Shown: piece after piece, positions 1-23,856 of the stretch
Position numbering within the stretch: the stretch's first letter is position 1
Layout: each line of letters opens with the position of its first letter
NCBI GenBank assembly: GCA_030690415.1
Contig: JAUYGZ010000011.1
Coordinates: 6,269-70,268, forward strand
Direction of reading: 5' to 3'
Origin: a bacterium
Lineage (GTDB): Bacteria > Patescibacteriota > Gracilibacteria > JAUYGZ01
DNA: 64,000 bases
Notes under the pieces: model-generated
What the model was told of the DNA's origin: nothing
The model's input: the letters and a program-made list of their open reading frames with translations, nothing else
Databases searched by the model: none
Program-made: the position numbers and the translations under genes

Positions 1-3000
1 GGTAGATTTGGACTTCGTCGAGAGAACCATTGAAATACTGTGTAGAATAATTGTTATACCCAATATAAAGAGGGAAAGCATTAGCAGCTCCCAAAGTTCC
101 AGTTGCTTGGTAAACCTGAGTACCATTTACATAAAATCGATGGGTTGCGCCATTAAATGTCGTGGCAATATGACTCCATTGGTTCAGTACCGGAGCAATC
201 GTTGATGATGGATTGGTTCCCCCTCCGAGGGTAATATATCCATTTGTAGCAGTTAAATATAAACAATAATTATAAGAGGAATTTCCATCACCCTTACAAA
301 TAATATTTTTCTGAGTTGAGAAACTTGTCGGATAAACCCAGACAGATAGGGTCAACGCACTGGTAATATCCAGAATATTCGCATCAGAAACACTAATATA
401 ATCATTCGTCCCGTCAAAACTCATCGCGCCTCCAACTCGTCCTGAAGTCACATACCCATTTGGAGTCACCATATTCGTGGCCGTCCCATTCAGCCCATTC
501 CCGCTAAAATCACTCTGCGTTGTCCCACTATTAAACGGCATATTCAACGCCATCAGCTTCTTCGCAGTCCCGTCATTATAGGTCCACTGATACGCCTGGA
601 TCATCTGACTACTAAACTGTGTGAAATCGCGAACCAGATTCTCCGAAGTAGGCAAGAATACCGTCGAAGACCCACTTCCTCCCGCCAGCTGAAGCGATGG
701 GAAGAGCCAGCAAGCATCATTCCCTCCTCCATTAACCGAATTCCCGGTCTGAATATCTTTGCTGCTGACGCATCCTCCATTGCTGACATTCGCGTACTGA
801 ACACTCACCGAGGCATCAGTATGGGTAATATTCCATGGCGTTGGAGTCACCGAATCAGATGACTGCAGGTTGATTGCATTCCCAATCCCACTCGCCCCCG
901 TGATGACCAGCTTCCCCCCTGAAGCAAAAGTCTGGGTCTGCCCTGCGGGAAAGACGATCGTTTTCCCGGGGATGATACTCTTCAAAATGAAGAACGTATT
1001 TGATCCGGAAATGTTTGAAGTAGACGATACCTCGCCGTTGATCGTCACCATGCCGGAGTTGTGGGTGAAGACCCCGAGATTCGTCCAATCCCCCGCCACC
1101 TCCATATTCGTCGCGTGCCCTGTCAAGACTCCGGTTGCGGAAATGGCAAGATTGTTAAACATTGTCTGAGTCGTTCCCAAAACCGTACCGGTACCGGTGA
1201 AGGTCACCGTGCCGGAATTGTGCGTGAAAGCAGTCCCATTATTCGTCCAGTTCCCCGCCACGTTCATGTTCGTCGCGTGACCGGTCAGTGCGGCACCAAT
1301 AACGATATTGTTGAACGTCGTCGTGCTCGATCCGAGAATCGTACTGGCCCCCGCGAAAGTCACGGTACCGGAGTTGTGCGTGAATGTTCCATCATTCGTC
1401 CAGTCCCCATACACCGTCATACCAGTCGAGTGACCGGTCAAAGTCCCGGTCATGGAAAGATGATTGAAGGTCGTTTCGCTGATACCAAAGACCTGGCTAT
1501 CAGCCCCCGTGAAGGTCACCGTGCCGGTACCGCGGTTGAAGACTCCCCCGTCTCTCGTCCAATCCCCATCCACACTAAAATTCGCGGACGGAGCATTGAA
1601 GGTCCCTCCGGAAAGATTGAAATTCCCGGCACTGCCGATCGTGATCGTAGCCGAGCCACCCGTAAAGACACCACTCGCCTGTTTCAATCCATCAGAGCCG
1701 ATAGCCATGGTATAGGCATTCTGGGAAATCGTACCGCTGTAGGGAACCTGAATATCAATACCCTTCACATCCACGGCAACATCGACCGAACAATTGATAT
1801 TGGAAGAAGCCTCGAAGAGAGCCACGTCACTTGGCCCTGGGACAACCCCCCCGCTCCAGTTGGAGCCCGTATTCCAGGCATTGCTGGTCGTTCCTAACCA
1901 GATAAAGCCACTAATAAAATCATCAAAAATCCATCGCACATTGTGCTGGCTGTAGCCAATGGATCCCGTACCTCTGACATCGATCACGGTCGAACTATTA
2001 TTGTACGAATCCCGCACATCGAGATTCGACAGGGTTCGGCTTCCTTCTGAAACAATATTCCAATAGGTCCCGGAAGTTGTGCTTCGTAACGCCAGGCGGT
2101 TCGGATCAGCACCCCCCACCAACGTCAACGCTCCGTTAATCGTCTGGGTCTTCCCCTCCTCGAAGGTCATCTCGCGCGCCACGGACACCGTCTTGCTCAG
2201 ATTATTAAACGTCGTACTGCCGAAGAGCGATTGATCGGTGCCGGTGAAGGTCACCGTGCTGGAACCGGCGTTGAAGATTCCCGTAGTAACATTCAGCGTC
2301 CAGTTTCCACCAAGTGAAATCATCGACGCCCCGGTCGCCGCGTTCAGCGTGCCATTAATGGTAATACTATTCGTAATCGTCAGGTTATAGCCATTGGCAT
2401 TCAGCACATCCCCCGCGTCGATCACCAGCGAATCAGCCACCAGATTACTCGTCAGCGTGATGGTGTCCGGAGAATGCCCCACCACCAGATCCCCCAGATT
2501 GGAAGCCGTGCTATCGGAGAAACTCAAATCCCCATCCAGCGTCAGCGTTCCTCCTTTCGTAAAGGTCGTGCCCGAAGCCAGTGTGAAATCCCCCGCCACG
2601 TTCATACTTCCCACAGGAGCGATGAAAGTCCCCAACGTCTCCGTGAACATTCCGTTGATATCGAGATTGCCGGCTGAGGCAGAGAAAATATCTTTTGTGG
2701 CGTTCGGGTCATTAATCGTGAAACTAAAATAATCTACTCCCGCACCAAAATCTTTTATCGCGTGCGTGTCCTGAACCCCATCCCCATCCCCCACGTATTT
2801 CCAAATTCCCTTCGTCGTATCATTTCCTGAGCTGAGCGTGACGCTCTCATTGCCCCGCAACTGAATGACTCCGGTATTGCTCACCGCCCCCGTCACCGCC
2901 AGCGCGTTCCCCGCCAGATCCACTGTCCCCGCGCTGTTCGTCAGAGTCCCCAAAGCCGTAAGACCATTCGTCACAAGCTGCAATGTCCCCGATCCCGAAT

Positions 3001-6000
3001 GAACAATGTTCCTGAAGGGGCTACTCCCGCCCCCGGTATTGAATAATTGAGTCCCGCTCCCCGTGAAGGTGACCGTACCGGAATTATGCGTAAACGTACC
3101 GCCATTGGTAAAGTTCCCCGCCACATTCATGTTGATAGGATGGCCTATCAAAGCTCCAGACCCTGAGATCGTGACATTGGTAAAGGTTGTTATGTTTCCA
3201 CCTAAGACAGCGTGTGGCACTGAACTATCGAAGACCACAGTGCCAGTGGAAACAAAATCTCCACCCTGATGAACCAGATCACCACTGACCGTAACCATGT
3301 TGCTGTCGGCATTGAGAAGAAGACTTGCCGCGGTGGTAGCGCCAAGACTATAAAACGTCGAGGGGGAGGACTGGTTCCTATACTCGGTTAGAATCCACTC
3401 AACGGAACGGGTAACACTGGAGACTCGGACTTCGTCGATAACGCCTGGGAAAGCTCCATAGGTACCAGTGAATCCACTACCAAAAAGATTAGGCGCGTAA
3501 ACCGTTGTCCTGGGAGAAAGTAAACCGGTTCGAACAAGGACACCATTCAAATAAATGATGGGTCGCTTATCAACATAGCGTACCGCGATATGATTGAAGC
3601 CTGTACCAATAGTCCCGCTGTAAACAGCAAGAGGAGGCATGTAGGAGGTCGCATGTTCGTACACGGAAATACCATTCTTTCCCACTGATAATCCAGCGCC
3701 TGCATTCGGAGAACCATAGCCTCCTGGCCAAAAAACATATCGCTGACCGGATGTTCCGGTGGTAGTACTTGTGCTCTCAGTATCGATTTGATGATCCGTC
3801 GTCGTCTGTACCCACGCTGAAAAGGTAAAATTATTCGTGGGTTGCACGAGAGCCGTGGAAACATATGCTGTCGTTCCATTAAAATTACCGGCTCCATCGA
3901 CTTGTCCAGTGGTCGCGGTGACAGCAGTGTTCGTCCCGTTGTAGCCGTTTGAAGTAGAATCCGTAACACTCAGCGTGGTGCCATTCGGCATATGATAGAC
4001 CCCTTTAAAATTTGAATCCCAGGTACCGCTCACGCTGGGATTAGTACTCACGGAACCATTGCCATAAAAAAGATAGATGCTCGTATCAACAATGCTCGAG
4101 AGCGTCGGAATCCTCACCCAGGCAACAAACTCGCCCGTGGTAGAAACATATTTTTCAATCTCATGATCCAGCTTATTCCCCGACGAATCCGTAAAGATAA
4201 TGTCATAACCATTCGCATGAGTAACATATCCACCATTTGCCACGGTTTTCAGTTCGAGATCCGTGACGGAAAAGAGTATCGGGAAATTGCTCTGGGTAGC
4301 CGCCACTTTTGTTCGGTCAATCGTCACCGACTTCCGATATGAATATCCGCTGTACCAAGCGCCTCCTCCGCCTGTCAAAGAAAGATCACCATTCACATCC
4401 AGAGCGCCACTTAAATCGTAGCTTCCCGTTCCCGTAAAGCTCAGATCATAGTAAGCATTCCCGGCTCCCAACGCCCCATACGTCCCACCCCCGTAATACT
4501 CCACCGTCCCCGTATCAGTATCCATCATCGTAATGGCCACCGTTTCATCTCCTACCAGTTTCAGCGTTCCGTTATTATTGAGAGTCGTCAGTGATAGATT
4601 TTTGCTATTCATAATTGCTGTTCCGTTCAGCAGATCCATCGTCGTCGCGGTCAAAGCGGAGTTCATCGTCCACTCTCCTCCTACTCCATTGAAAGCGATC
4701 GTACTGAAATCACTCGTCGTCGCCCCCGTCGAATCAATCGTTTGAGCGGTAGTCGATGTGAATGTCACCGTGCCGGTACCGGCGGTGAAGATTCCGGTGT
4801 TGATCCAGTTTCCGCCAACCGTGATCGTATTCGCGCCGGCCGTCAGAGTCCCCTTGTTCTGAATATGATGCGTATTGACATTTCCCCCGGGAGCAAAGGT
4901 CGAAGCAGACGGGATATAAAGCTCTTTGCCGGACTGAATCGTGGGCACCGTGGCATCCACCATGTAAATCGCGTCAACATCAGAATCAGCCACATCATGC
5001 GCCACATCCAAATCCGCGTTCGTGATACTCGTCCCAGTCTCATCTCTCACGACCAGATGATCAACATAAAGATCAGCATCGACCACCGACACCCCATTCA
5101 CTTTCAGCACCGTAACCGCTTTCTCAGTCTCCCCATCAAGGAAAATAGTCACTCGATATCCCGACAAAAGCCAGGCAGGGATAACCGCGATCGCGTAATC
5201 TCCAAACATATTCGTCTCAGCCGTCTGGGTTCCCACGAGAGTTCCCGACCCATCAAAAACCGCCACCACCACGGTCTTCCCACTTATCACCGTCCCCGAC
5301 GCTTCGGGATCATTGGTATAAACCGTTCCTGAGATCGCCATGGAGGAAAAGATCCACTGGTCTGTCGGAGGCACATCTGCATCATCATTACCGGTGCCAC
5401 TAATAGAATCCGCAGCATAAATATCATGACTCATCGCATTAGCGTTTGAAACACTGACATAAGACACATGCTGATCAGCGGCCGTCACGGCGAAAGACCA
5501 AGGCAAAGTCCCATCTATCAAGTCGAGCGAAAGCTCTGTCCCCGTAGCCAGTCCACTCAGCGCCAGCACACCACCAATCGTCTGAGTCTTGTTCTCTTCA
5601 AACCGAAGCGCTTTGCTGGCCACTTCGGATTTAAAATTATTGAACGTGTTGTCCCCCCTGATCTGACTCGTCCCAAGCGTATCAAAATCAACCGTGCTCG
5701 TTCCTGCCGTGAAGCCGCCTCCATTATTCGTCCAGTTCACCGCCACCTGCAGCAGGTTCGAAGCCAGCGTGAGCGCTCCCGTCGCCTCAAGAATAAGTGA
5801 TCCGTCCACATTGATCGTACTTGATCCCGTAGCCGTGTAAACACCGGCAATCGTCAGGTCGCCACTACCGCTCGCCGTCACGTTATTCGCTCCACTGAGG
5901 AAAGAAGCACCGGATTCAACGATAATGTTTCCGGAGTTCACAACACCTCCGGGCTGATAGGTCGTGCCGGTCAGAATAGTCAGAGTACGGCCGGTGAGCC

Positions 6001-21000: not shown

Positions 21001-23824
21001 GAGACATAGCCTCCGAAAAATCACCAGAAGAATTGGTATCGTGCAGCGTGACCTCCGCCACTCGATCTTTCCCGGCTCCTCCAAAGACGGTTCGATAGAG
21101 GAGTTGGTTAGCACTATCCACCTGCTCTACGACAGGATCAAAATCAGATCCTAAAAGACACTGGTATTCGCTGGTCCGAAGAGGAAAAATCAGAGCGGGC
21201 ATCATCTGTCCAACCGCGTACAAACTCTTCTCATCGGGAAAAGGAAGGAGAGACCAGCCAAAATTTAAATCAGCGGGGGGAATACAAGAGGAAAGATCAG
21301 GGTGAATCCTCATCGCCATGGAAAGAGGAAATCCATGATCATATTCTTCGACTGAAAAGGAAACCCCTTTTGCCCCCAACATCTGATAATTCACATCCTT
21401 CAATTGTGTCCCATCAGGAAAAGCCTGATAGGCCAAAGGCTTATCAAACCCGATCTGACAAACTCCCAAATCGAGCAGAAGATCTCCCTGCTCCGTCACC
21501 TGAAGGCGTTCTGCCCCATTAAATCGAAGAATAATGTCATTCACTTCAGCCTCAGGAGCAATGGTAAACAATTGATCAAGCCCCACACCCTCTCCGAAAA
21601 TGTTCAGGTCAATACCGGGATACAGTGAAGAATACCGCAGCTCAAGAGTTGAAGGAATATCCTGATACCACCGCTCAGGCTGATCTCCCAGGACTCGGTA
21701 CAGAAGTGGTGGCGAGACTTGCTGATCTGAAGAATTTTCGACCGCGAGAATCTCTTCCGTCTGAGCACCAACAAATTGCTGCCGAATAGCCCCGAAAACA
21801 AAAGGTGATGAAGACATCTCGAGAATATTCGACTGCAGAGAGGAACCATCTTCACAGCTCAGATCAGCCGAAGACGATTCTGGAAGCTCCAGAAGAGTGT
21901 CTTTTGAAGCTTCTTCAGGGATCACGTCGGGCAAAGCCGACGGGTCTTTGCCTCCTTCATCAAGGACGGGTTCCGAGATGACAGACTGATCAGGCTCCTG
22001 GTTTAAACTCAACGCCTGGTATTCCTGAGCAACCTGAAGAGGAATAAACCAAGTCCCAATCAATTCACGATTCTGGAAAAAATAAGAAGCGCGATCTTTT
22101 TGTGCTCCAAACACAATACTGTCATCCCACTGCCCAAGATTTTTTTCAAAAAGAAAAGGCTGATCATAAAGAAAACTCAACTGGGCGGTATTCTGGGAAT
22201 CCTCCACCCTTTGATCAATTGGCATCAAAATATCCTGCTGCAGCAGAAGAGGAAAGGTCAAAACCTCGGGGTGAGTGATCCGAAGAATAAAACGACCATC
22301 CAAATACCTCGCCTCAATGACGCCCGAACGGATCTCTCCATATCCATCGATCAGCTGAGGGGGAGTAAACACAAAAGGTCGGGAATCCTGAAAGTTTTTC
22401 TTCCACACGAAAAATCCTCCATCAGCCATAGCTTCCACGTGATATTCCTCGGCTGACTGAATCTCCCGACTAAACTCATAAGCATCATTAAAACCATCTT
22501 TCAACAACACCCATTGCTTGAGGGCTCTTTGATCACGGTCGTAGAAATACGAAACACTCTCCGGTCGAGTTTGATTCGCGAAAACGACCATTCCGGAATC
22601 AAAGGAAGCATTGTATCCCTCTTGGGGAAGAAAGGAGAGCGTCTTCTGTTCGTCATCAAACCGCAAAGCATGAAGCCCAAGAGAAAAATCTTTTTTCACC
22701 ATAATCATAGCGTCACTCAGATCTCGAATAGCTTTCTGATGAAAGAGAAGAATAGAGTCTTCATTGTCCAAAAACTCCGGCCGCAGCTGCTTCAGTCGCT
22801 CACCATATTCTCCTTTTTGAGAAACGGATTCCTGAGAAGGCGCTGATTCGGATGGCAAACCTTCAGAGGGAAAGACTTCGGGTACTGAAGACTCATCTGG
22901 TGGAGTCTCGGCTGAATCAATGACGGCATCGGGAGCAATGACTTCATCCGGTGGAGTCTCAGCTGAATCAATCACGGCATCGGGGGCAATATCTTCAGCC
23001 GGTGGAGTCTCAGCTGAATCAATGATGACATCAGGAAAAATGACTTCATCCGGCGGAGTCCCGGCTGAATCAATCACGGCATCGGGGGCAATATCTTCAG
23101 CCGGTACCGAAGCGGGATCCCCCACCGAAGGCTCTACCGGGACTTCAACAACCTGAGCGGGAGCCTCAGACCATGAGAAAAATAATGCCGAGAAAAAGCC
23201 TGACAGTTTCCGAGAGAAGTTTTCAATAAAACCAACCGGCTCTTCAGAATTATCGGAAGGAGTCGGAGGTATCGTCTCAGGTGCTGATTCCTCCGGTACG
23301 GGAACTTCTGCTGGAACAGGATCTAAAATTTCTTCAGATGGAACGGTTTCATCGGGAAGCACATCAACGACCTCGTCAACAGCAGGCTCCGTCACGGGTT
23401 CCACCACAGGCTGCTCCGCGGGTCCAACGGAGTCTTCTGGGACAACGTCTGAAGGGCCCCCTTGAATATTCTCATCCTGCGCGGGAAGAGAACCCTCAGC
23501 AGGAGACGGTGAAGGAACAGCTTCTTCGAAAACATCTGGCGTAGGTAAAAAAAGCTCACGGTCATATTGACCCAAAAAATAATACTGTTCAGTCTCCTGA
23601 GCCCGATACCGCCGCAGATCATCCTCACTCTGGGGACTGAAATAATCTTCCTTCACCCCTCCAAAAGACGGCTCTTCCAACCAAGACTTCACGGGCTCAG
23701 GAAAAATTTGAGCGGAAAACCACCCGGAAAGAATTCCCTGAAAGGTGATAAATGTCACCAGGAAGACTCCCGCGAAAAAGAAGAAAAATCCTGCCTTCCG
23801 ATATGATTTACCCTGTCGCTTCAA
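1..23824 (-). CDS. Giant surface adhesin-like protein, 3'-partial, with at least 7,941 codons in the window. Parts from N to C: signal-anchor, acidic Pro/Glu/Asp spacer, duplicated globular domain, long G/T/N-rich beta-helix-like repeat region with CarboxypepD_reg-like inserts, DUF2341-like domain, and at least 6 LamG (Laminin_G_3-like) modules
   Basis: The minus-strand frame with codon tops at 23824-3k is open across the whole region. I translated it by eye and spot-checked forward triplets at positions = 2 mod 3 for tta/cta/tca. All 13 listed minus-strand ORFs in 1-23800 lie in the other two frames, and the + ORFs (278 aa or less) are shadows. The frame is missing from the track only because its stop is left of position 1. 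An in-frame TAA sits at 23858-23860. The first start-type codon is TTG at 23824, giving MKRQGKSYRKAGFFFFFAGVFLVTFITFQG (basic n-region plus TM). Recurrent LMALNMPFNxGTQTDFSGNGNxGT ... GS(L/I)DEVQIYPRALSAAQI motifs are typical of LamG modules. Confidence 0.85.
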   Translation of the reverse strand, partial: MKRQGKSYRKAGFFFFFAGVFLVTFITFQGILSGWFSAQIFPEPVKSWLEEPSFGGVKEDYFSPQSEDDLRRYRAQETEQYYFLGQYDRELFLPTPDVFEEAVPSPSPAEGSLPAQDENIQGGPSDVVPEDSVGPAEQPVVEPVTEPAVDEVVDVLPDETVPSEEILDPVPAEVPVPEESAPETIPPTPSDNSEEPVGFIENFSRKLSGFFSALFFSWSEAPAQVVEVPVEPSVGDPASVPAEDIAPDAVIDSAGTPPDEVIFPDVIIDSAETPPAEDIAPDAVIDSAETPPDEVIAPDAVIDSAETPPDESSVPEVFPSEGLPSESAPSQESVSQKGEYGERLKQLRPEFLDNEDSILLFHQKAIRDLSDAMIMVKKDFSLGLHALRFDDEQKTLSFLPQEGYNASFDSGMVVFANQTRPESVSYFYDRDQRALKQWVLLKDGFNDAYEFSREIQSAEEYHVEAMADGGFFVWKKNFQDSRPFVFTPPQLIDGYGEIRSGVIEARYLDGRFILRITHPEVLTFPLLLQQDILMPIDQRVEDSQNTAQLSFLYDQPFLFEKNLGQWDDSIVFGAQKDRASYFFQNRELIGTWFIPLQVAQEYQALSLNQEPDQSVISEPVLDEGGKDPSALPDVIPEEASKDTLLELPESSSADLSCEDGSSLQSNILEMSSSPFVFGAIRQQFVGAQTEEILAVENSSDQQVSPPLLYRVLGDQPERWYQDIPSTLELRYSSLYPGIDLNIFGEGVGLDQLFTIAPEAEVNDIILRFNGAERLQVTEQGDLLLDLGVCQIGFDKPLAYQAFPDGTQLKDVNYQMLGAKGVSFSVEEYDHGFPLSMAMRIHPDLSSCIPPADLNFGWSLLPFPDEKSLYAVGQMMPALIFPLRTSEYQCLLGSDFDPVVEQVDSANQLLYRTVFGGAGKDRVAEVTLHDTNSSGDFSEAMSPDTAVLHNSIDSYLLLSGETDSPNFPIRALMASGEIESIFPQPFELQVDGKGRLLFEGVDLFSVTQSVSLEIPEDHISEVPVDQVPLDQPRRPDEEQLPGEETPVLPGEGALVPPGQESSVPGEETVHGSAEELPTDVTVLPEEFLPNPEVLPPGEGQLPPDGVGVEGPVELVPDFSPEQLLSDLIDQIVVNPDPERYDLQFILLEQNLYEIRIIERSSGLLRASFQLDLTELLQQAQEEYSQEGPLPPGPPDPLIRGNSSGSEEIRSEGDSVSPEMAPVSPEPTTFFYGIRKAYAQGVSDERSNPKSVQNENGNSLKQFLQQGKFQFVPGLEVEGDETHVVFTKQRTVESARDRSLYLPNLNLAAGVFICPRLETNLLEEVTDDCPGRIVVQKDQIGVPFRVIDAVEGDVEILVDLVDQKGDLRPLDELMNDVTANYKITGTALSGAGIFGFLETSWLDLDAFSSLKEQVAASYEATLSVHPGTTPLVVGESEGSFFQGDFTLEELAQKKAPFPLEALSGLSEDQWFAKRYETFRKAIKPLVYQTQGFIERLFSNPTLDLSSVQDQRKYGRLSDGEAIALNLVEQQPVAAFQDDTVLQPLQEGEALVTFSKDFVGGIRYSGARGSMVLKPLTDDVYRVENHYGLLSFVNQEGANDIFSYFYDAQTRTQREWLVLHNRPAVPFQFQWALENPEQYQVLAGAQGGFLVIPRGVGAEGAFLVAAPFFIDAQGIRHDDQILFRYSEGVFTLKLQDQDTISFPIAIDPSVVIPGSTALAQQQVYPITVVSDGEGIPLAAKSVSVLINGEMADVQKGLSDASGQTSMILPTVSAGDVLSFFFDDGVHRAATVIVAGDTATALELVAGRVSIRSDMSVEFTNTLLALGSGSTTLSDFYSISPEGGLVLAEGMSLSIASGTVYRPGGDVSVTDLINEGTFYPEARTIHVSGSWINTNVFHAGTSTVIFEGDADGVIDSSEALHSGFYALQILGGARTLRSPLLVERNIDIRGGSLTGAFDVSIFGGNLFCSSDCSPAQVTLTDGALALDGGGVLGGEQMELSLHGLFLDGPTPGATVVESSLNISENITIGGAEMDRSLDLRSASQPMTVAGNLTIQEGAGLQLADGVEYVVSGDWVNRGSFEAGASKVVFAGPQASTIFGDNTWHDIESTELGKDMYFEAGKTQTTLGSFRIVGADGMNKENLIEVRSTRQGKLVYDGDQIKKDAEGNVVYDGEQWMLDPKGQIEISYVIWGGANNLSGQLIKVYPSFSHGDNTGFDLDPSWDSGCGSNYNWSCDNNWNPNGQPTSSDSVTWGVGSGSTPSIVDQNYLVLSVNVATAWLGGPLQITGGELTVTNDFNISGDATVNLGTQRLTVSGNLILGAGGQGIFAYTGTTTHGTQPMMRVAGNLQVGSIGTASSFQAPGDDNYLSVAGNITTPNGTFDANDGNLQLYGTTDQLVDSGVSVLNNLTLNNTGTSGTDDLVFSATNLDVNGVLWIDDGDLNATNVNVAKSLIVNAAGSLAVSGTWTFDGAGSHNLRTNSLNMGTVVYNRPSGSLHLVDTNFTASSLTITDGGFYEDGFNSTINGTLTVNGGTYYKSTGTTMVTGLTVAGGTFSGSSGAIDVNGSVSRTSGTLTLSSSTTNVTGDFTGSFTHGSGTVIFDGTSTQTINSASSFNNVTVSKTGTLSLSTNALAAAGTLTVSGGTYSPATLGTSVANLTVEGTGTFTGGSGMVTATGNVSRTAGTLTLPSTTTNVGGDFTGVFAHNSGSVVFNGGSAQAINSTSSFNNVTVSKTGTLSLSNDLTALGTLTITGGTYSPGGYFTSVTGLTTVSGTGTYLTPTAAQIFNGGLTISGGTYTGSTGALAVYGVMTFSSGALTAPSGLFLVNGNWNRTGGTFTPGTGTVIFDGAVFTTQTLNNVGSAFYSVSHAGAGTLALVSDLALANGGTLTQSAGIFDTETNSKAVTVGSSGTTSTLAITGGTWEGDGGTGANQNIVVWGPMSVSNATFKKSSNTLTAKTTLTAGLNSGSGTTTFTSGSGNIDVDSHFTIQKGVSETVSFTAPSGTLFVGGNWGKTAGTFNHNNGTVTFDGATPQSITGANTFYSFTKSVTTAATLTFPEGLTQAFVAGGTLTLNGAAGNLLSIRSSSLLGVQASINPQGTRSISYVDVQDNNNIHATAINPANSVDAGNTTNWFTDRISGRLYAADGTTPLTGKLVQLWVNGSATGGGNDTTDGSGDYLITGTSFTSGDVLTLFISGAAEDGVTVTISNAVILSGIDIYQNHLIVRDEDGVGGISNSDLEDSNGSFGSADLDSIYTTPGPLVLCEEPPCPVTIIVNSGKTLLVPSGHIFAPRDQLVVEGSTDIKGTLTLPSIGKGVVYSLFSGSFAISSGAVVNGGGFPMTFDGAISSAGTFTTTTDTMTVNGDFTRTAGTFTNSGSLTFAGTGTSTLSVNGVSVGSISVDGTSKTLQLGSAATVTTLVIGADDTVKTAGNILTATTHNIANGGVLEVRSGTDFTVTTPDTNSGKIRYVGNGNDTANNMSIRDSGATDYYNLEILSTDVSPTPDNFRLSLPLSVAGTFTISAGTFNANDQPVTSTGLVTVQGTSGAIYNAGGATQTFNGGLTVTRALFQGGAGIIDVTNVSISDESPLPPGDFHVSGNWVFDDTNGVLCVPSCGAKLTFDGSGTQTIAVPSERINELTHSGSGTLQALSALTILDSLAVSSGVLDLNGQNLTATGAIFSNTATVRDTLAGTILGLAQDPYSGTWLVAAAGSLRDLGATDYFDLDINPTSGTVSSSGTIVTTGDIDAQTGTFGGTADITVGGGDIGGAGVINMTGGKVTLPGSTLGGTGGPYTFNDVDLTGTGTTTAQGTITVNGALTVGDGTAHTLDLTTNDAILAVNNLTVAALGVVSASDTQPLTIFGNYTNNGSLTHNNGMVVFTSPTTDTILDAGQTYYDVTMNASGTYLLGDFFRVNHLATISQNTRIHATSGSYGIRFDGSVDIADSVNLSLEPTGDITITSGLDKIYSTGGKAGTLTIGEGAGGTVGFGTAATGVLQISTTIRDAITSGEITTLKVTGGTVDLNAIDFSSRVFNLTIDAGNIGLEQLTLATDQTLRLISTGTITDDNGSTNNVTIAGTGSVLFDAVTNVGTALAGDEIETSVQNLAARTVSGYGSIYVAEADDLVVGSVGGINGVSCVHSGLPAINACSVQANGGITLNQAISGTDIPIVLIADADNSGAGSLSGSGTLTTTTSGDISVRSSGVTSLGAITSVGGLTLDAGTTAPTYTAGGAISATTLTIAANVILDLNGRSLAMTTLVNNGALKLWGNESVTGGAAGDGEWVFRGDGVTNPMTLPNLTYETLTINDPTATTTFQPTATLNVGTLEITQGTFYQNGQTVTVTNPTTFILNGGTYNQSGTLNVSGDMDIQEGTFNGSSDPINITRDFIQGVTGTGGTFHSTSGTMTVGRNFNHPQGTFDANGGTVDFDTATTAVISGNTTWNNLSSVEAGGKSIQVATGSTQTINGALTLTGASGNVIALASNSAGVQWTIDHQGTESLSYVSVKDSACTVMPLSTAIDATDNGYDLGNNGVCWVFETLQLGEGPGFIPQTQLTTAQDLYSDVVGIDSGEIGAYWWTVGASNLMALNMPFNAGGTQTDFSGNGNTGTTYNMTTPNGYVSSGKVGGAMSFDGVNDYVSRSDDSDFDISSALSVSVWVNPASYDATNRFIVTKGNGAVAYNYTLFLRNTVGDVQFTGASSSRWDSPPTANQWNHIVIVADSTNSYAYLNGVKLTCTSGYTCGGLGSVNNDPLYIGYNGYSDNYFKGSLDEVQIYPRALSAAQVAQLCNDGDSDGDCSDGIDVGQGFGGPTLWSALETSVDNVWSLSVTPITSSGIVGSTVVSANTVEILPYAPITDLYLEDGVVTTLSTVEDLNALDPVPGLAGTDIGAYTWSVDPDAGDNPAENGTSPSANLMALNMPFHYGTTQTDFSGNSLNGTTVAVDYISGGSCKVGGCLRFDSVADVVGFGDPQIMEDVISGEDKKFSMSFWIKPSAVMTNNFIIAKAADSSCSQNQRSYLLRLGTGSKPEFLWYGALDGTSYRGVLGSTSVTNTSIWYHVVMTYDGTIDTNNGLDRVKIFVNNLLETTTLNLSFGSLLGAANGTAHFALGNMLTPSGSICGVGIPSFNGSIDEVQIYPRALSAAQISQLYTNGNAGNGGPTLWSALETSVDNVWNLSVTPITSSGVVGSTVVSANTVEIIPYAPITALQLGIDNGGFQQSTTATTVQDIWSNPTGLSLPDIGVYRWTVGASNLMALNMPFNEGGTQTDFSGNGNTGTATNMVSPNGYVSSGRVGGAMSFDGVNDYINVPHSAVNNFGKTDAFTGSAWVNVTDFATLRYIFAKQRVTSPYEGYDLQVATSGKIWVEMVDTAIKTKRIESNVALSTGTWQHVAFTYNGSGDASGVKIYINGVNIAVTVLYNDAFTADIKNTLPLLIGARDTVYQPMKGLIDEVQIYPRALSAAQISRLYTDGVAGFGAPTVLANAETFNGDVFNLIITPLANNGISGTAVTSANTVTIAPDVYLEDGLVEELNTLEVLNSTVDTLDPGSVGAYRWTTNGANVMALNMPFNSGATQTDFSGNGNTGTVTGAVYQSCQVGGCLNFNGTTNYVQTPSNSTLNMSGELTISAWVNLTAGGGRGIFEKTVGGVLNTDYSLFLSGTSTYFRIHNGTSYTDLIYAAQPSTGAWHHILAVNSVSGGYRKIYIDGVQVASGASSAMRTGGDGLSYIGRLATTGYYFSGKIDELQVYPRALSVAEIIQLCDDGDGDAANGTCNPPSGGAIGAGVGGPTAWVAAETVPEQLWGLTVTPISSAGVVGSTTASSNQILILGPDISGTCVDSYGGASCSTSYTVKVAVNGVLQAGKTTTDSDGSWTIPGVTASSGNVITVFLDGAEDSAEAVAVAKYLGAGEAMTGLELVRTHLTLGNGVSQTLSNAEVGSYINSADEDAFHGLDGSALTVNGDGGLTGRTLTILTGTTYQPGGVVNSGNIIVESGASFLSGANNVTASGSGDLTIAGVYTATGSSTINVDGSLILEATGALTLASNLLQVAVNWTNNGGGFTAGTSTVDFDTLGTSQIRGDNTFNNFKSEVASKALRFEENKTQTIGGVLALSGLATGTELSLDLIDGTLPWSFAVTAADQHVSYVSVSNANAMSHDIYAADSISGTGNDDADVPPTDQWIFSSMAISGTVYTNDPEASGTVISGKTVVVAVFDGSGTLVGTQTAETNMFGDYAIAVIPAWLLSGYRVTIFLDGETEKAVTVLKVNGVSVVDADLYVDHLVVRDETGTSITNADLDVAHDVADSDVDAIYMVDATVPTIQSGKELYIPSASTFAPGGNVNTHHIQNKGTLTAGANTITVGGNWINTGIFTAGTGTVTFTSTTAQTIDSTGATTSDFSTIAFNGVGGEWTMNSALTATTMDLLNGTAIMNSKNLSLTTLNNNGTLKLVGDETVAITMMDTDTGTVEYYGGGTYGALGAGNAYYDLSFTGTGSYDLSGALDVNGDLSLTGGGGAWYSGYSYRKSVTIDRTKVAATQSNFPILFSVTDLELKTVANGGYVTHANGYDIIFTDSSGNKLDHEIEKYVSTTGEFVAWVRIPTLSSIVDTSIYLFYGNGSVSTNPSVSGTWDSNFKGVYHMPNGTTLSVTDSTSNGYNGTNTAVTATTGQVDGAGNFNGTTAYVSTALVQPTNNFTFSAWVQTTTDHQIDTESTSTTTGTSGQRYVFWPGGYGSPNAGAGLSVGKNGISVYEHATSYMPPLAVYSGTIGTGFNHIAVRYVDKRPIIYLNGVLVRTGLLSPRTTVYAPNLFGSGFTGTYGAFPGVIDEVRVSSVTRSVEWILTEYRNQSSPSTFYSLGATTAASLLLNADSNMVTVSGDLVHQGGDFVSTGTVVFDSSVPHAVLGGNITTFTNVTISGSGALIGHPINMNVAGNFTNGGTFTHNSGTVTFTGSGTQLFNTGGGSSPFRNIVHSGSGTLQLVTNGLTALGTLTNSAGTVDLAGNALAVTGAVSNTGVIQLRGNESVTLSSGNDTTKGIWKYVGDGDGVQDTHAIKDFGAGVDYFSFTINDPNATKDIFSASAGNLDINGMFTETLGTFIAPVGSMNVAGDFTLASGTTFTKGGTLTLDGDLSFSDSTASNLGDLVVGHSPDTITLTSNLVADSLVIDAGDVLNANGYNLTITNSITINGTLNAATGASMISLGGNWTLNVTTGIFNAGSSTVTFTGTDQSLFGSTTFNNLSKTVSVAREMTFEEGKTQTINGALTLVGGADPNRLALRSTTSGTYWNIVSEGSRTLSNLDVRDSYNNSSTVIDVRGTGSIGYSQHNVRWIFDDFISGFIWLGTTSNAWNTGSNWSGGVVPGPSDVALFEASSNINCSVDVAVDVKGIDIQVPYSGTISQNAYTMAIGSDGLKQASGVFTGGSATITIGSAGNFNLSGGTFNAPSANFSVDGDWTRDGGVFNRGTGTVTFTGADSQVFGISETTFNHLSMTGTLTGHSTGMTVYGDWTNDGTFTHNSGTVTFAGASTILGSSTTTFNNIVIGAALTGHATNMNVAGNWTNNGTAFTHNSGTVTFTGTGTVLGTTQTMFNNLAISATGVLTGHATNMEVAGDWTNLGVFTHNSGMVTINGEVSSTSNISGSNTFFILKSIIPGKTIVFPAGQTQTFASGGKLVITGASGIGNAINLQSSDSVTPTPWNITHTDASVSVQYANVSNGGCVSSKDIQTGNSVNGGGNDACWLFPSLQLAGGSGSSTVFLPTSENLVRDFTQFSSQMIQAYQWTYNDGTAKKLMALNMPFNSGTTQSDFSGNGLNGTATNMVTPNGYVTSGRVGGAMSFDGTNDYISVSDANILDITSALTLSVWVYPTSFSTQKNIICKGDGNSSYNYCLYLTATNGYITLGGGTNPSSTIAPVLNQWSHIATTFNGATHRFYVNGTQVYQATGTLGAANAFPLYIGYNNYSTQYFNGSLDEVQIY
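3422..4358 (-). other. DUF2341-like domain (about 4060-4358) followed by a LamG module (about 3422-4050) inside the giant gene
   Basis: The coding strand reads WYSGYSYRKSVTIDRTKVAATQSNFPILFSV...GYDIIFTDSSGNKLDHEIEKYVSTTGEFVAWVRIPTLSS..SIYLFYGNGS, the pattern I recognise for DUF2341. It is followed by ...GVIDEVRVSSVTRSVEWI, a LamG C-edge. Boundaries are approximate. Confidence 0.6.
6640..10120 (-). repeat. Four consecutive LamG cassettes with conserved edges and divergent cores, separated by similar linkers
   Basis: The N-edge word aaacggcatattcaacgccatcag (rc = CTGATGGCGTTGAATATGCCGTTT, LMALNMPF) occurs at 10094-10117, 9110-9133 and 8099-8122, with a variant at 7178-7201 and another copy at 533-556. 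The C-edge word cgggggtagatctggacttcgtc (rc encodes DEVQIYPR) occurs at 8463-8485 and 7512-7534, with variants at 9542-9564, about 6639-6664 and 1-22. Linkers at about 8260-8408 and 9305-9453 align by eye at roughly 85% identity. Confidence 0.8.
15545..16210 (-). repeat. Tandem duplication of about 333 bp (111 aa) within the beta-helix-like region
   Basis: An identical 23-mer, cgtcacattgttgaagcttgaag, occurs at 15659-15681 and 15992-16014. The offset is 333 nt, or 111 codons. Flanks align by eye at roughly 80% identity. Outer boundaries are approximate. Confidence 0.7.
20225..20275. repeat. C-run palindrome plus G-run mini-element, copy B, in frame inside the giant gene
   Basis: The + strand reads ccccctgataaggggg (hairpin, 20228-20243) tca ggggg tcc ggggggg agagg cccc. 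The coding (minus) sense reads EGPLPPGPPDPLIRGNSSG. The architecture and + strand orientation match the copy at 25905-25955. Confidence 0.6.
22899..23102 (-). repeat. Four 51-bp in-frame tandem repeats (17-aa unit similar to xEDIAPDAVIDSAETPP) in the acidic N-terminal spacer of the giant gene
   Basis: Units were read directly at 22899-22949, 22950-23000, 23001-23051 and 23052-23102. Units 2 and 4 differ at 3 positions. Confidence 0.9.
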
Positions 23825-23856
23825 ATGACGAAAATGATGTAATTTTATTTCTCTCC

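What the first reader, a model, noticed from the sequence alone, without database searches (positions are those of the whole stretch)
1..23824. A 23.8-kb open frame invisible in the ORF track: a >7,900-aa LamG/beta-helix surface giant
The track shows nothing longer than 278 aa in the first 23.8 kb. That could be misread as non-coding DNA or as a recoded region.

One minus-strand frame has no stop from the TAA at 23858-23860 to the window edge. All listed minus ORFs sit in the other two frames.

The incomplete product has at least 7,941 residues. Its parts, from N to C, are:
- a TM anchor;
- an acidic spacer;
- two copies of a ~150-aa domain (…YFYD…W..L…GGF.V……FP..IDP);
- several thousand residues of ~100-aa G/T/N-rich units (GT(V/F)TF.G…Q.I…FNN(L/V));
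- CarboxypepD_reg-like inserts;
- a DUF2341-like domain;
- at least 6 LamG modules.

This would rank among the largest bacterial proteins. It suggests that carbohydrate or surface binding is central to the organism's lifestyle. Attachment to a host or partner cell is inference only.
Basis: seen in the sequence. Interest (0 to 1): 0.7.

Follow-up and report, generated by a model that had tools for sequence, protein, structure and literature searches.

The report
Giant membrane-anchored surface fibre gene
The first 23.8 kb of the window is one real, unbroken gene for a surface protein of at least 7,941 amino acids in a tiny-genome (CPR, "Gracilibacteria"-labelled) bacterium; it is anchored by its front end, is built of rigid beta-sheet rods and sugar-binding-type modules, and is probably an attachment fibre, which makes it a large but not unprecedented example of a known class.

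Summary
The minus-strand frame 2..23857 has 7,952 sense codons and no stop (chance about 1e-196). It starts at TTG 23824 and runs off the window edge inside a sixth LamG domain. The ORF tool omits it only because it does not list ORFs that leave the window.

The genetic code is standard, so this is not recoding. The organism is a CPR bacterium; NCBI labels near-identical fragments "Candidatus Gracilibacteria".

Architecture, N to C:
- one N-terminal TM anchor;
- an acidic spacer;
- a roughly 1,700-aa "base": a new beta-sandwich domain in two copies, DUF7948 and a Cys-containing module;
- G/T/S/N-rich rods, one of which AlphaFold models confidently as a beta-solenoid;
- four small beta-rich inserts;
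- DUF2341;
- six Laminin_G_3 modules.

Pfam Beta_helix and CarboxypepD_reg are not recovered.

The base is shared and syntenic in related CPR genomes. One relative carries a roughly 7,500-aa version split by a frameshift. The distal arrays differ between relatives.

The best reading is an N-anchored extracellular fibre, very roughly 100 nm long, that binds glycans on a partner cell or surface. "Among the largest bacterial proteins" is overstated, since proteins up to 85,804 aa are reported. This is a new member of a known kind, of moderate interest.

The parts
2..23824 (-). Giant ORF of at least 7,941 codons; the 3' end lies beyond the window edge.
   Evidence: Stop-free frame; chance about 1e-196; fragments from an independent MAG match it.
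23822..23824 (-). TTG start codon, the first ATG/GTG/TTG after the upstream TAA at 23858-23860.
   Evidence: The NCBI protein MDZ4216918.1 (P0154) from another assembly starts at the same codon, MKRQGKSYRK. Most genes in the window also lack a Shine-Dalgarno motif.
23857..23865 (-). TGgTATAAT, an extended -10-like promoter element about 33 nt upstream of the start.
   Evidence: Read from the sequence. No function was tested, and the consensus scan did not list it because there is no -35 box.
23723..23797 (-). The only hydrophobic TM segment (aa 21-45), preceded by five basic residues; a signal-anchor with N-in, C-out orientation.
   Evidence: Hydropathy scan of the whole protein. The orientation is inferred from the positive-inside rule.
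23564..23686 (-). Conserved juxtamembrane motif (aa 58-98): W.E.P.F..V...YF....L..YR.QETE.Y..G.YD.
   Evidence: Conserved in P0153, P0156 and P0157 (alignment A2) and in P0303.
22658..23563 (-). Acidic, Pro-rich spacer 1 (aa 99-400; 22% D+E). It contains a conserved amphipathic stretch (aa 208-232, window 23162-23236) and a 51-bp (17-aa) tandem array at 22893-23105.
   Evidence: The other MAG has two fewer 17-aa units.
22163..22585 (-). Domain A copy 1 (aa 425-565), a new beta-sandwich domain with no Pfam model.
   Evidence: Internal HMM iteration. Copy 2 was modelled by AF2.
21323..22150 (-). DUF7948 (aa 570-845), with an acidic insertion.
   Evidence: Pfam PF25778, 100.7-104.8 bits against a cut-off of 27. 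Of the 18,865 proteins found in the representative library, nearly all of the 150 listed match only this part of the query.
20858..21322 (-). aa 846-1000: continuation of the DUF7948-type homology, with one SBBP-like blade motif (FGGAG.D / SGETDSPNFP).
   Evidence: HMMER matches extend to about aa 960. The motif was read from the sequence. This assignment is an inference.
20078..20857 (-). Acidic, Pro-rich spacer 2 (aa 1001-1260; 20% D+E).
19064..20077 (-). Conserved middle module of the base (aa 1261-1598), including LYL.N.N.GAGV.ICP...EV.DDCPGR; no Pfam hit.
   Evidence: Alignment A2. No Pfam or NCBIfam hit.
18644..19063 (-). Domain A copy 2 (aa 1599-1738), ending in FPIAIDPSV.
   Evidence: AF2 model has pLDDT about 71-95 and 13 strands. 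Foldseek gives only weak matches to beta-sandwich accessory domains of polysaccharide lyases and GH65 enzymes.
18452..18643 (-). Small beta-rich insert 1 (aa 1739-1802); one opens each of four rod segments.
   Evidence: Internal HMM finds four copies. The CarboxypepD_reg relationship is inconclusive.
14447..18451 (-). G/T/S/N-rich repeat rods 1-2 (aa 1803-3137), with terminal 'cap' motifs at aa 2087-2235 and 3021-3137.
   Evidence: Unit and cap HMM hits; 45% G+T+S+N. The fold is inferred from homology to the modelled rod.
14228..14416 (-). Small beta-rich insert 2 (aa 3148-3210).
10256..14227 (-). Repeat rod 3 (aa 3211-4534), with a cap at aa 4416-4534.
9521..9973 (-). Laminin_G_3 module 1 (aa 4629-4779).
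   Evidence: Pfam; internal HMM.
8441..8965 (-). Laminin_G_3 module 2 (aa 4965-5139).
7490..7978 (-). Laminin_G_3 module 3 (aa 5294-5456); it also matches Toxin_R_bind_N and the N-terminal lectin domain of sialidase.
6617..7072 (-). Laminin_G_3 module 4 (aa 5596-5747).
6182..6367 (-). Small beta-rich insert 3 (aa 5831-5892).
5348..6181 (-). Repeat rod 4 (aa 5893-6170), with a cap at aa 6049-6170.
5099..5302 (-). Small beta-rich insert 4 (aa 6186-6253).
4214..5098 (-). Repeat rod 5 (aa 6254-6548).
4019..4213 (-). DUF2341 (aa 6549-6613).
   Evidence: Pfam PF10102, 34.6-35.8 bits against a cut-off of 23.4, covering profile positions 1-65 of 84.
3401..3877 (-). Laminin_G_3 module 5 (aa 6661-6819).
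   Evidence: it is one of the six stretches.
701..3280 (-). Repeat rods 6 and 7 (aa 6860-7719), with caps at aa 7195-7311 and 7597-7719. aa 7380-7730 is the segment modelled as a beta-solenoid.
   Evidence: AF2 gives pLDDT 88.4 and pTM 0.87. Foldseek finds only weak matches, all to beta-solenoid proteins.
2..412 (-). Laminin_G_3 module 6 (aa 7816-7952), cut by the window edge at profile position 141 of 151.

Best explanation
This is an intact gene for a very long extracellular fibre of a CPR bacterium.

Proposed working, step by step:
- The single N-terminal signal-anchor (aa 21-45) holds the protein in the cytoplasmic membrane, with everything after it outside the cell. This is inferred from the positive-inside rule.
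- Two acidic, proline-rich spacers and a lineage-conserved 1,700-aa base carry it through and beyond the wall or S-layer. The base consists of domain A in two copies, DUF7948 and a Cys-containing module. This role is inferred.
- About 4,200 residues of G/T/S/N-rich repeats form a series of rigid beta-solenoid rods. Four of the rod segments open with a small beta-rich insert, and each rod closes with a conserved 116-aa cap. One rod was modelled; the rest follow by homology. Laid end to end the rods would span very roughly 80-120 nm, which is an inference.
- Six or more lectin-type Laminin_G_3 modules plus DUF2341 are interspersed towards the distal end. They would bind glycans or other surface structures of a host or partner cell, or of a substrate. 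This is inferred from the family.

Relatives keep the base and the chromosomal position but carry different distal arrays. That pattern fits a conserved anchor combined with a fast-evolving binding end.
For: A real gene:
- The frame has 7,952 stop-free codons.
- The genetic code is standard: 8 of 23 genes end in TGA, and there is no in-frame TGA in DnaK, EF-G, ThrA or the giant.
- Its codon bias matches that of the other minus-strand genes.
- Fragments from an independent MAG are 99.6-100% identical with no frame break.

Topology:
- There is only one hydrophobic segment, at the N-terminus after KRQGKSYRK.
- The complete relative P0303 carries the same base and shows no anchor-type Pfam domain, and its C-terminal sequence as read shows no hydrophobic or LPXTG anchor.

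Rods:
- AF2 models aa 7380-7730 with pLDDT 88.4 and pTM 0.87, as an all-beta fold of regularly spaced short strands.
- All Foldseek matches, though weak, are beta-solenoid proteins, mostly adhesins: tapirins, Ag43, HMW1 and autotransporter passengers, together with CsgA, RsaA and the HK620 tailspike.
- 34 unit hits and 17 cap hits are spread over aa 1904-7719.

Binding modules:
- Six Laminin_G_3 domains score 390.7 bits in total. There are secondary matches to Toxin_R_bind_N (E 1.6e-8) and to the sialidase lectin domain.
- No catalytic Pfam domain was found in the giant or in its relatives.

Conserved locus:
- In a Ca. Altimarinota MAG the N-terminal base fragment P0156 sits beside the same neighbours: tmRNA, GIY-YIG, AhpC, Flavodoxin_2, VanW and EF-G.
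- In a JGI contig the base gene P0153 (3,298 aa) is fused by a frameshift to a 4,200-aa ORF carrying at least 8 LamG modules. Together they would make about 7,500 aa.
- The base is only about 30% identical between these genomes, whereas the best named DnaK relatives are about 83% identical.

Organism and precedent:
- The closest named DnaK relatives are Ca. Altimarinota and Gracilibacteria, and the near-identical fragments are labelled Candidatus Gracilibacteria.
- Related CPR lineages are reported to carry giant membrane or surface proteins thought to act in host attachment (PMC8080830, PMC4736985).
Against: - No expression, localisation or binding data exist.
- LamG and ConA-like domains are generic and also occur in enzymes and toxins.
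- The C-terminus lies outside the window and could carry an effector, an enzyme or a second anchor.
- Foldseek found no significant structural match (best E 0.16), and only one of about seven rods was modelled.
- The function of the 1,700-aa base is unknown. Its domain A gives only weak fold matches (best E 7.6e-4, TM 0.32).
- No secretion, pilus or glycan-related genes flank the gene within the window.
- No host is known for this organism.
Confidence: 0.6

Rival explanations
1. A structural envelope component rather than a specific adhesin. Under this reading the protein is a long, acidic, glycan-binding 'fuzzy coat' or spacer. It would organise or protect the cell surface, for example by binding the cell's own wall polysaccharide or S-layer, or by keeping distance from other cells.
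For: - The window encodes SLH-domain proteins at 45397-46836 and 55582-57579, so an S-layer-type envelope is likely.
- LamG modules could bind the cell's own glycans.
- The base and its chromosomal position are conserved like a housekeeping structure.
- Vampirococcus giant proteins are linked to a fibrous cell surface (PMC8080830).
Against: - The giant has no SLH or other wall-binding domain.
- The distal arrays differ strongly between relatives and the base is only about 30% identical. This is more typical of proteins that face other organisms.
- Rigid rods of the order of 100 nm project far beyond a wall.
Confidence: 0.2
2. A delivery or degradative machine. Under this reading the rods present a C-terminal toxin or enzyme lying beyond the window, or the beta-helix itself acts as a polysaccharide lyase or hydrolase. 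This would resemble polymorphic toxins, or the cell-wall-degrading giant proteins proposed for Omnitrophota.
For: - The C-terminus is unseen.
- Right-handed beta-helices include lyases and phage depolymerases, and Foldseek gives weak matches to the HK620 tailspike.
- Domain A weakly resembles accessory domains of polysaccharide lyases and GH65 enzymes.
- The giant-gene literature proposes prey cell-wall digestion (bioRxiv 10.1101/2023.11.21.568195).
Against: - No catalytic or toxin Pfam or NCBIfam domain occurs in 7,941 aa.
- None occurs in the complete relative P0303 or in 3,334 aa of the L025 distal ORF.
- Pfam Beta_helix and pectate-lyase families do not match.
- The structural matches are non-significant.
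Confidence: 0.1
3. An artefact or a dead gene. Under this reading the sequence is a chimeric or collapsed repeat assembly, or a pseudogene that is no longer expressed.
For: - The gene is fragmented in short-read assemblies: P0152, P0154 and P0155 lie on contigs of 1-4 kb, and P0156 is cut by a contig end.
- The tandem array at 22893-23105 differs in copy number between assemblies.
- The L025 relative is split by a frameshift.
Against: - A stop-free run of 7,952 codons cannot persist without selection.
- The internal repeats are divergent: 25-65% at the amino-acid level and at most 91% at the DNA level over short stretches.
- About 28% of the ORF is confirmed by independent contigs, with a 34-aa indel in the tandem repeat as the only gap.
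- The architecture is colinear with that of relatives.
Confidence: 0.04

Closest known systems
Very large extracellular or membrane proteins of CPR bacteria related to this organism: Ca. Peribacter riflensis in Peregrinibacteria (PMC4736985) and Vampirococcus lugosii in Absconditabacteria (PMC8080830).
   Same: - The same broad lineage (the Gracilibacteria / Peregrinibacteria / Absconditabacteria part of the CPR) and a small genome.
- A predicted membrane or extracellular location.
- A proposed role in attachment to other cells.
- Strain-level indels of tens of bp in the large proteins, matched here by the 102-bp difference in the tandem repeat.
   Different: - Those reported proteins are 1,219-3,861 aa and 1,392-4,163 aa. 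This one has at least 7,941 aa.
- Their listed domains differ: Cys-rich repeats, FG-GAP, WD40, PKD, DUF11 and integrin or fibronectin domains.
- The 1,700-aa base, the rod-plus-cap repeats and the LamG arrays described here are not reported in those papers.
Giant proteins of Omnitrophota (West-Roberts et al. 2023, bioRxiv 10.1101/2023.11.21.568195).
   Same: - An ultra-small bacterium with a disproportionately long gene.
- Large unannotated stretches that need structure prediction.
- Beta-helix filaments and attachment or carbohydrate-related modules.
- The rod unit and cap motif of this protein occur in Omnitrophota ORFs at 29-44% identity.
   Different: - Those proteins have 30,000 aa or more (up to 85,804), many TM regions and a divergent SecA_DEAD domain.
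- Here there is one TM segment, no SecA_DEAD domain and no enzymatic domain.
Beta-solenoid adhesins: tapirins of Caldicellulosiruptor, antigen 43 and other autotransporter passengers, and HMW1/FhaB.
   Same: They are the top Foldseek matches, all weak, of the modelled rod. They share an elongated parallel beta-solenoid used to project binding surfaces.
   Different: - There is no significant structural or sequence match (E>=0.16, TM 0.2-0.3).
- There is no TPS or autotransporter domain.
- The anchor is an N-terminal TM helix in a bacterium expected to lack an outer membrane.
- Many rods are chained together, with LamG modules in between.
Giant1-5 surface proteins of Apilactobacillus kunkeei (PMC12863079).
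   Same: - A similar size class (3,000-8,000 aa).
- A similarly large share of a small genome.
- Beta-solenoid plus rod architecture.
- An adhesin interpretation, and rapid diversification.
   Different: - In those proteins the rods are alpha-helical repeats and the beta-solenoid is a single N-terminal binding domain.
- They have a C-terminal SH3b-like wall-binding domain.
- They show no sequence relationship to this protein.

Membership tests
Laminin_G_3 (PF13385, ConA-like lectin/glucanase superfamily) | The HMM score reaches the Pfam gathering threshold (27.6 bits). | tested here: met
   Six stretches total 390.7 bits. Chunks holding a single module score 90.8-96.2 bits and the three-module chunk scores 170.2 bits. 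The positions were confirmed by an internal HMM.
DUF2341 (PF10102) | The HMM score reaches the gathering threshold (23.4 bits). | tested here: met
   34.6 and 35.8 bits at aa 6549-6613, covering profile positions 1-65 of 84.
DUF7948 (PF25778) | The HMM score reaches the gathering threshold (27 bits). | tested here: met
   100.7 and 104.8 bits at aa 570-845, covering profile positions 1-209 of 214.
CarboxypepD_reg (PF13620) | The HMM matches the four roughly 63-aa inserts. | tested here: not met
   No hit at E<=1 on the chunked protein. When seven insert sequences (four from this protein, three from relatives) were scanned singly, one reached E=0.0027. The other weak hits were Big_1, Big_6 and NOMO1-like beta-sandwich domains.
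CarboxypepD_reg (PF13620) | A transthyretin-like seven-strand beta-sandwich fold. | tested here: inconclusive
   The AF2 model of insert 1 has pLDDT 44-60. Strands are predicted but the model is not reliable.
Beta_helix (PF13229) / pectate-lyase-type right-handed beta-helix | An HMM match. | tested here: not met
   No hit at E<=1 in any chunk.
Beta-solenoid fold class (not a sequence family) | Stacked coils of short parallel strands. | tested here: met
   AF2 gives pLDDT 88.4 and pTM 0.87, with about 40 strands of 3-4 residues at regular spacing. The Foldseek matches are all beta-solenoids but non-significant. Coordinates were not inspected directly.
Omnitrophota-type giant proteins (West-Roberts et al. 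2023) | At least 30,000 aa, numerous TM regions and a divergent SecA_DEAD domain. | tested here: not met
   There is one TM segment and no SecA_DEAD hit. The full length is unknown but is at least 7,941 aa.
RTX / type I secreted giant adhesins (LapA, SiiE, MpIBP type) | C-terminal RTX nonapeptide repeats with a T1SS signal, and tandem BIg repeats. | tested here: inconclusive
   No HemolysinCabind or Big family was found in the 7,941 aa seen. The C-terminus lies outside the window. An N-terminal TM anchor is not the RTX-adhesin arrangement.
Two-partner-secretion (FhaB/HMW1) and autotransporter adhesins | An N-terminal TPS domain or a C-terminal beta-barrel. | tested here: not met
   There is no Haemagg_act/TPS hit at the N-terminus. 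The C-terminal barrel cannot be tested. CPR cells are generally considered to lack an outer membrane (established knowledge).
Lineage-specific 'base' family defined here (giant, P0153, P0156, P0157, P0303) | A colinear series of TM anchor, juxtamembrane motif, acidic spacer, domain A, DUF7948, spacer, Cys module and domain A. | tested here: met
   HMMER against 1.84 billion representatives; alignment A2; domain A HMM hits; synteny with L027.
Sortase (LPXTG) or other C-terminal anchors | A C-terminal sorting signal. | not testable with these tools
   The C-terminus is beyond the window. The source contig could not be reached.

The most novel reading that the evidence does not exclude
The giant and its relatives would be one syntenic, lineage-specific family of host-recognition fibres in standard-code Gracilibacteria/Altimarinota CPR bacteria. 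A conserved, previously undescribed 1,700-aa envelope-spanning base carries interchangeable distal arrays of beta-solenoid rods and LamG lectin modules. The base comprises two copies of a new beta-sandwich domain, DUF7948 and a Cys-containing module. The distal arrays diverge rapidly, and sometimes break by frameshift, to track the surface glycans of particular hosts. In effect this would be a cellular analogue of a phage tail fibre that sets host range.
Probability: 0.3. Interest if true: 0.55.

Novelty: new member of a known kind. Interest (0 to 1): 0.35.

Why it matters
CPR bacteria make up a large share of bacterial diversity, and most are thought to live attached to other cells. The molecules that mediate that attachment are almost unknown.

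This gene takes up at least 23.8 kb of what is probably a genome of about 1 Mb. It is conserved in position in relatives, yet its binding end varies. That makes it a concrete candidate for the attachment or host-range determinant of this lineage.

It also gives three un-modelled sequence families that could be turned into profiles: domain A, the rod unit, and the 116-aa cap, which occurs in large ORFs of at least four phyla.

Finally, it is a practical warning. ORF listings that drop frames running off a contig, and short-read MAGs that shatter such genes, hide them systematically.

Tried and rejected
1. Alternative genetic code or recoding. NCBI labels the organism Gracilibacteria, and many Gracilibacteria read UGA as Gly. 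Rejected: 8 of 23 genes end in TGA at family-typical lengths, and there is no in-frame TGA in DnaK, EF-G, ThrA or the giant.

2. Foreign origin, suggested by odd codon usage (RSCU r = 0.34 against the other genes). Rejected: all minus-strand genes show the same G-ending bias, which follows the strand GC skew.

3. A diversity-generating retroelement target. No template/variable repeat pair links the gene to any other part of the window, and there are no inverted repeats.

4. Finding the C-terminus:
- An exact 32-nt search of JGI metagenomes found nothing.
- The GTDB genome scan with the last 600 aa found only relatives at 29-54% identity.
- A profile scan of metagenomes found nothing; an earlier attempt failed for lack of conserved columns.
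- The source is an NCBI contig of 150,698 bp, but look-ups of window proteins return only other contigs.

5. Full-length homologues. The k-mer-seeded search with aa 12-5000 returned 4 proteins with at most 11% coverage.

6. Sequence search of aa 401-1830 against PDB sequences gave no hit at E<=1.

7. NCBIfam gave only the LamG-like part of TafC, far below its cut-off.

8. Joint AF2 modelling of domain A with the small insert:
- MAFFT misaligned the native insert rows.
- The insert was therefore modelled from a single sequence and came out with low confidence.

9. A literature search for the sample and assembly accessions found nothing.


Full report
**Observation**

A six-frame scan shows one outstanding stop-free stretch: 7,952 codons on the minus strand from window 23857 down to 2. 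The codon upstream, 23858-23860, is TAA. The first canonical start in the frame is the TTG at 23824-23822, which leaves 7,941 codons to the window edge.

The two other frames of the same strand hold 381 and 494 stop codons over the same span. The chance of an empty frame is therefore about 1e-196.

The ORF lister shows nothing above 278 aa in 1-23824. Its description states that it omits ORFs running off the source. The frame leaves the window at position 141 of 151 of a Laminin_G_3 domain, so the gene is truly incomplete.

**Is it a real, intact gene?**

- The code is standard. 8 of 23 well-defined genes in the window end in TGA. DnaK, EF-G, ThrA and the giant contain no in-frame TGA. This matters because near-identical fragments are labelled Candidatus Gracilibacteria, a group in which many members read UGA as glycine.
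- The giant's codon usage correlates only modestly with the pooled other genes (r = 0.34). All minus-strand genes behave the same way (0.07-0.45). The difference is a preference for G-ending over C-ending codons, which follows the strong negative GC skew of the plus strand. This is a strand effect, not a foreign origin.
- Three proteins from an independently assembled MAG match the frame. P0152 is 100% identical over aa 709-1072. P0155 (MDZ4216718.1) is 99.6% identical without gaps over aa 1468-2763. P0154 (MDZ4216918.1) begins MKRQGKSYRK at the same TTG.
- The only structural difference is a 34-aa deletion (two 17-aa units) inside the 51-bp tandem array at 22893-23105.
- Internal protein repeats are 25-65% identical. 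No DNA repeat exceeds 91% over 80 nt or 86% over 198 nt. Repeat collapse or chimerism is therefore unlikely, although reads could not be examined.
- An extended -10-like TGgTATAAT lies at 23865-23857. There is no Shine-Dalgarno motif, but most genes in the window lack one too.

**Organism and surroundings**

DnaK (51380-53326) has its best named relatives in Ca. Altimarinota and Ca. Gracilibacteria (83% identity), followed by Peregrinibacteria and Patescibacteria (about 70%). Altimarinota belongs to the Patescibacteria group.

The window comes from an NCBI contig of 150,698 bp. Two short contigs, a Logan assembly of SRR13727534 and GCA_034372685.1, are 100% identical to window 24151-33705 and 27059-32585.

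The neighbours are housekeeping genes:
- tmRNA at 24199-24651, then GIY-YIG, AhpC, Flavodoxin_2, VanW, EF-G, GrpE and HrcA;
- a 2,053-aa cytoplasmic ORF;
- Fmt, a MurJ-like flippase, SLH-domain proteins, YebC, DnaK, RNase P RNA and ThrA.

Nothing in the window is obviously dedicated to secreting or modifying the giant.

**Anatomy of the protein (aa numbering from the frame start at 23857; the TTG is aa 12)**

- *Anchor.* Only one segment of the whole protein is hydrophobic enough for a TM helix. It lies at aa 21-45 and is preceded by five basic residues.
- *Juxtamembrane motif and spacer 1.* A conserved juxtamembrane motif (aa 58-98) comes next. It is followed by an acidic, proline-rich spacer (aa 99-400, 22% D+E) holding the 17-aa tandem repeats.
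- *Domain A.* An internal HMM iteration finds two copies of a roughly 140-aa domain (aa 425-565 and 1599-1738).
- *Between the two copies.* Here lie Pfam DUF7948 (aa 570-845, 101-105 bits), an SBBP-like blade, a second acidic spacer, and a conserved module with the motif GAGV.ICP...DDCPGR.
- *Repeat region.* From aa 1739 the composition shifts to 45% G+T+S+N. HMMs seeded on single repeats find 34 units of 52-66 aa. They also find a 116-aa cap motif (F.HNSGTVTF.G..Q.I...F.N ... QW.I ... YV.V.DS ... S.D.GNN..W). The cap is full-length at five places and interrupted at a sixth.
- *Small inserts.* Four copies of a roughly 63-aa insert (aa 1739, 3148, 5831 and 6186) each follow a cap, a LamG module or domain A. 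The region therefore reads as a chain of about seven rods.
- *LamG and DUF2341.* Pfam finds six Laminin_G_3 modules (aa 4629, 4965, 5294, 5596, 6661 and 7816) and DUF2341 (aa 6549-6613). LamG module 3 also matches the clostridial-neurotoxin receptor-binding N-domain and the sialidase lectin domain.
- *Nothing else recognised.* No other Pfam or NCBIfam family matches. In particular there is no Beta_helix or CarboxypepD_reg hit at E<=1, and no catalytic or toxin domain.

**Folds**

*The rod.* AlphaFold2 on aa 7380-7730, with an alignment of internal paralogues and database homologues, gave pLDDT 88.4 and pTM 0.87. The model is an uninterrupted series of 3-4-residue strands, followed by longer strands in the cap.

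Foldseek against the PDB found nothing significant (best E 0.16). Every leading match is nevertheless a beta-solenoid protein: tapirin adhesins, curli CsgA, antigen 43, RsaA, HK620 tailspike, HMW1 and autotransporter passengers. The rods therefore belong to the beta-solenoid fold class but to no known family.

*Domain A.* Domain A copy 2 was modelled as a 13-strand beta-sandwich with pLDDT 71-95. It matches only weakly the accessory beta-sandwich domains of a polysaccharide lyase and of GH65 enzymes (best E 7.6e-4, TM 0.32).

*The small insert.* The insert was modelled at low confidence (pLDDT 44-60). Only one of seven insert sequences (four from this protein, three from relatives) touches CarboxypepD_reg, at E = 0.0027. 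A profile search of PDB sequences was uninformative.

**Relatives**

- *No full-length homologue found.* A k-mer-seeded search of 5.8 billion proteins with aa 12-5000 found only four proteins, each covering at most 11% of the query.
- *The rod and cap module is widespread.* It occurs at 29-54% identity in MAGs of Omnitrophota, Bacteroidota, Chloroflexota and Saccharibacteria. There it sits in ORFs of 0.4 to more than 3.8 kaa, mostly above 1.2 kaa, many of them cut by contig ends.
- *The base is lineage-restricted.* A full HMMER scan of 1.84 billion representatives with aa 401-1600 found 18,865 proteins, and nearly all of the 150 listed match only the DUF7948 part. Five proteins share much more of the N-terminal base: P0153, P0156, P0157, P0161 and its cluster-mate P0303. 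They are colinear with the giant over the stretches they cover.
- *P0156 is the positional orthologue.* It comes from a Ca. Altimarinota MAG. It lies next to tmRNA, GIY-YIG, AhpC, Flavodoxin_2, VanW and EF-G, as in the window, and is cut by the contig end.
- *P0153 is part of a roughly 7,500-aa gene.* P0153 (3,298 aa, on a JGI contig of 72.6 kb) also has a GIY-YIG gene upstream. It is followed, with a 4-nt overlap and in the -1 frame, by a 4,200-aa ORF. The junction falls inside a repeated glycine-rich unit that reads through if one frameshift and a short deletion are allowed. The two ORFs are therefore one gene of about 7,500 aa, split by a frameshift or an assembly error.
- *The distal LamG array is shared.* The distal part of that gene has at least eight LamG modules. 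Their LamG-plus-spacer super-repeat aligns with giant aa 4550-5810 at 29-38% identity over about 1,300 aa.
- *P0303 is a shorter, complete member.* It has 3,448 aa with the base, two LamG modules, a small insert, a rod and a cap, and no C-terminal anchor.
- *No catalytic domains in relatives.* No relative shows a catalytic domain.
- *The base evolves fast.* It is about 30% identical between genomes. The best named DnaK relatives, which include a Ca. Altimarinota MAG, are about 83% identical.

**Mechanism**

*Shown:*
- an intact ORF of at least 7,941 codons;
- a single N-terminal hydrophobic segment;
- acidic spacers;
- a conserved, syntenic base;
- a confident beta-solenoid model for one rod, with homologous repeats elsewhere;
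- six LamG modules and DUF2341;
- no enzymatic domains.

*Inferred:*
- The N-in, C-out signal-anchor topology follows from the positive-inside rule.
- The spacers and base are assumed to traverse the envelope. SLH proteins in the window suggest an S-layer-type wall.
- The rods are assumed to lie end to end. About 4,250 residues at roughly 17-26 residues and 0.48 nm per coil gives very roughly 80-120 nm.
- Glycan or receptor binding by the LamG modules follows from the family.
- The target is assumed to be a host or partner cell. This rests on what is reported for related CPR bacteria (PMC8080830, PMC4736985) and on the contrast between a conserved anchor and a variable distal end.

I put 0.6 on this reading. 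The rivals are a non-specific structural coat (0.2), a delivery or degradative device whose active part is off-window (0.1), and an artefact or pseudogene (0.04).

**Comparison with what is known**

Very long surface proteins are well documented in bacteria.
- More than 41,000 proteins above 5,000 aa exist in UniProt. Peregrinibacteria are among the most enriched bacterial phyla (PMC11573180).
- Omnitrophota reach 85,804 aa, and the threshold used there for 'large' is 10,000 aa (bioRxiv 10.1101/2023.11.21.568195).
- A 6,677-aa Patescibacteria protein (P0003), encoded on a contig of about 0.9 Mb, shares the small insert, the cap and repeat modules with the giant.

The claim 'among the largest bacterial proteins' therefore does not hold. 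The protein is about twice the size of the largest ones described for Peribacter (3,861 aa) and Vampirococcus (4,163 aa).

It is not a member of the Omnitrophota giant class, which has many TM regions and SecA_DEAD. It is also not a TPS or autotransporter adhesin. RTX-type adhesins cannot be excluded, because the C-terminus is unseen.

Three things are new:
- the family-level description of the conserved base with its novel domain A;
- the rod/cap repeat as an un-modelled family spanning several phyla;
- the syntenic, fast-evolving locus.

**Verdict**

I classify it as a new member of a known kind (giant N-anchored adhesin-like surface fibres of episymbiotic ultra-small bacteria), with moderate interest (0.35). 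The most novel reading still open is a host-range-determining fibre family with a conserved base and swappable lectin ends. I give it a probability of about 0.3.

Noticed in passing
window 24199-24651 (+); ORF 23980-24285 (-): A tmRNA gene (tag peptide AIRNAMLGEQLASVPVAPAFAFAA) lies about 375 bp upstream of the giant's start and is transcribed away from it. The 101-aa ORF 23980-24285 overlaps the tmRNA on the opposite strand and is probably spurious. In the syntenic Altimarinota locus L027 the tmRNA sits at the same place, but ARAGORN calls it in the opposite relative orientation.
   Followed up: partly
window 22893-23105: A 51-bp (17-aa, PDAVIDSAETPPDEVIA-like) tandem array of 4.2 copies lies in the acidic spacer. 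The otherwise identical N-terminal fragment MDZ4216918.1 from another assembly has two fewer units. This is either strain-level indel variation or a collapse in the short-read assembly.
   Followed up: partly
L025 19825-19900 (JGI 3300009868, contig Ga0130016_10001633): The related giant gene is called as two ORFs of 3,298 and 4,200 aa, overlapping by 4 nt in different frames. The break lies inside a repeated Gly-rich unit that reads through with a frameshift and a deletion of about 25 aa. This could be an assembly error, a pseudogene or phase variation.
   Followed up: partly
window 36521-42682 (-): A second long ORF of 2,053 aa has no TM segment and no similarity to the giant. Its only Pfam match is a short 68-aa hit to Aminotran_1_2. 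In a relative with 86%-identical DnaK (L022), S12, S7 and Fmt are adjacent and this gene is absent from that position.
   Followed up: partly
window 45397-46836 (+) and 55582-57579 (+): These are SLH-domain proteins. The first has two SLH domains plus a CAP domain; the second has a weak SLH match. They occur in a CPR genome and are conserved in the relative L022, which hints at an S-layer-type envelope.
   Followed up: no
window 1-64000 (skew change near 48-50 kb): The plus strand has a strongly negative GC skew from 1 to about 48 kb, and the cumulative skew bottoms out near 48-50 kb. Minus-strand genes, including the giant, prefer G-ending codons, while plus-strand genes prefer C-ending ones. 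This may mark a replication origin region or a strand switch; no dnaA gene was seen.
   Followed up: partly
window, upstream of all 24 genes examined: Only about 2 of 24 genes have a Shine-Dalgarno-like motif at a normal distance from the start. Several have C/T-rich leaders instead. GTG and TTG starts are frequent (9 of 24).
   Followed up: no
window 59017-59422 (-): A bacterial class A RNase P RNA (167.8 bits).
   Followed up: no
window 60336-62882 (+): A bifunctional aspartokinase/homoserine dehydrogenase (ThrA-type, with ACT domains), which is unusual biosynthetic capacity for a CPR genome. It is conserved in the relative L022.
   Followed up: no
window 53476-54852 (+) compared with L022 12068-13996: Downstream of DnaK the relative encodes a 642-aa Laminin_G_3 protein. 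The window has a 458-aa ORF with no Pfam hit at the same position. LamG proteins may be a recurrent and variable theme in this lineage.
   Followed up: no
window 23162-23236 (aa 208-232 of the giant): A short hydrophobic or amphipathic stretch (FIENFSRKLSGFFSALFFSW) is embedded in the acidic spacer. It is conserved in P0153, P0156, P0157 and P0303. It may contact the membrane or the wall.
   Followed up: no
L003-L020 (GTDB genome loci): The rod unit and the 116-aa cap motif, which have no Pfam or NCBIfam model, recur in ORFs of 0.4 to more than 3.8 kaa, mostly above 1.2 kaa, from Omnitrophota, Bacteroidota, Chloroflexota and Saccharibacteria MAGs. Many of these ORFs are truncated by contig ends.
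   Followed up: partly
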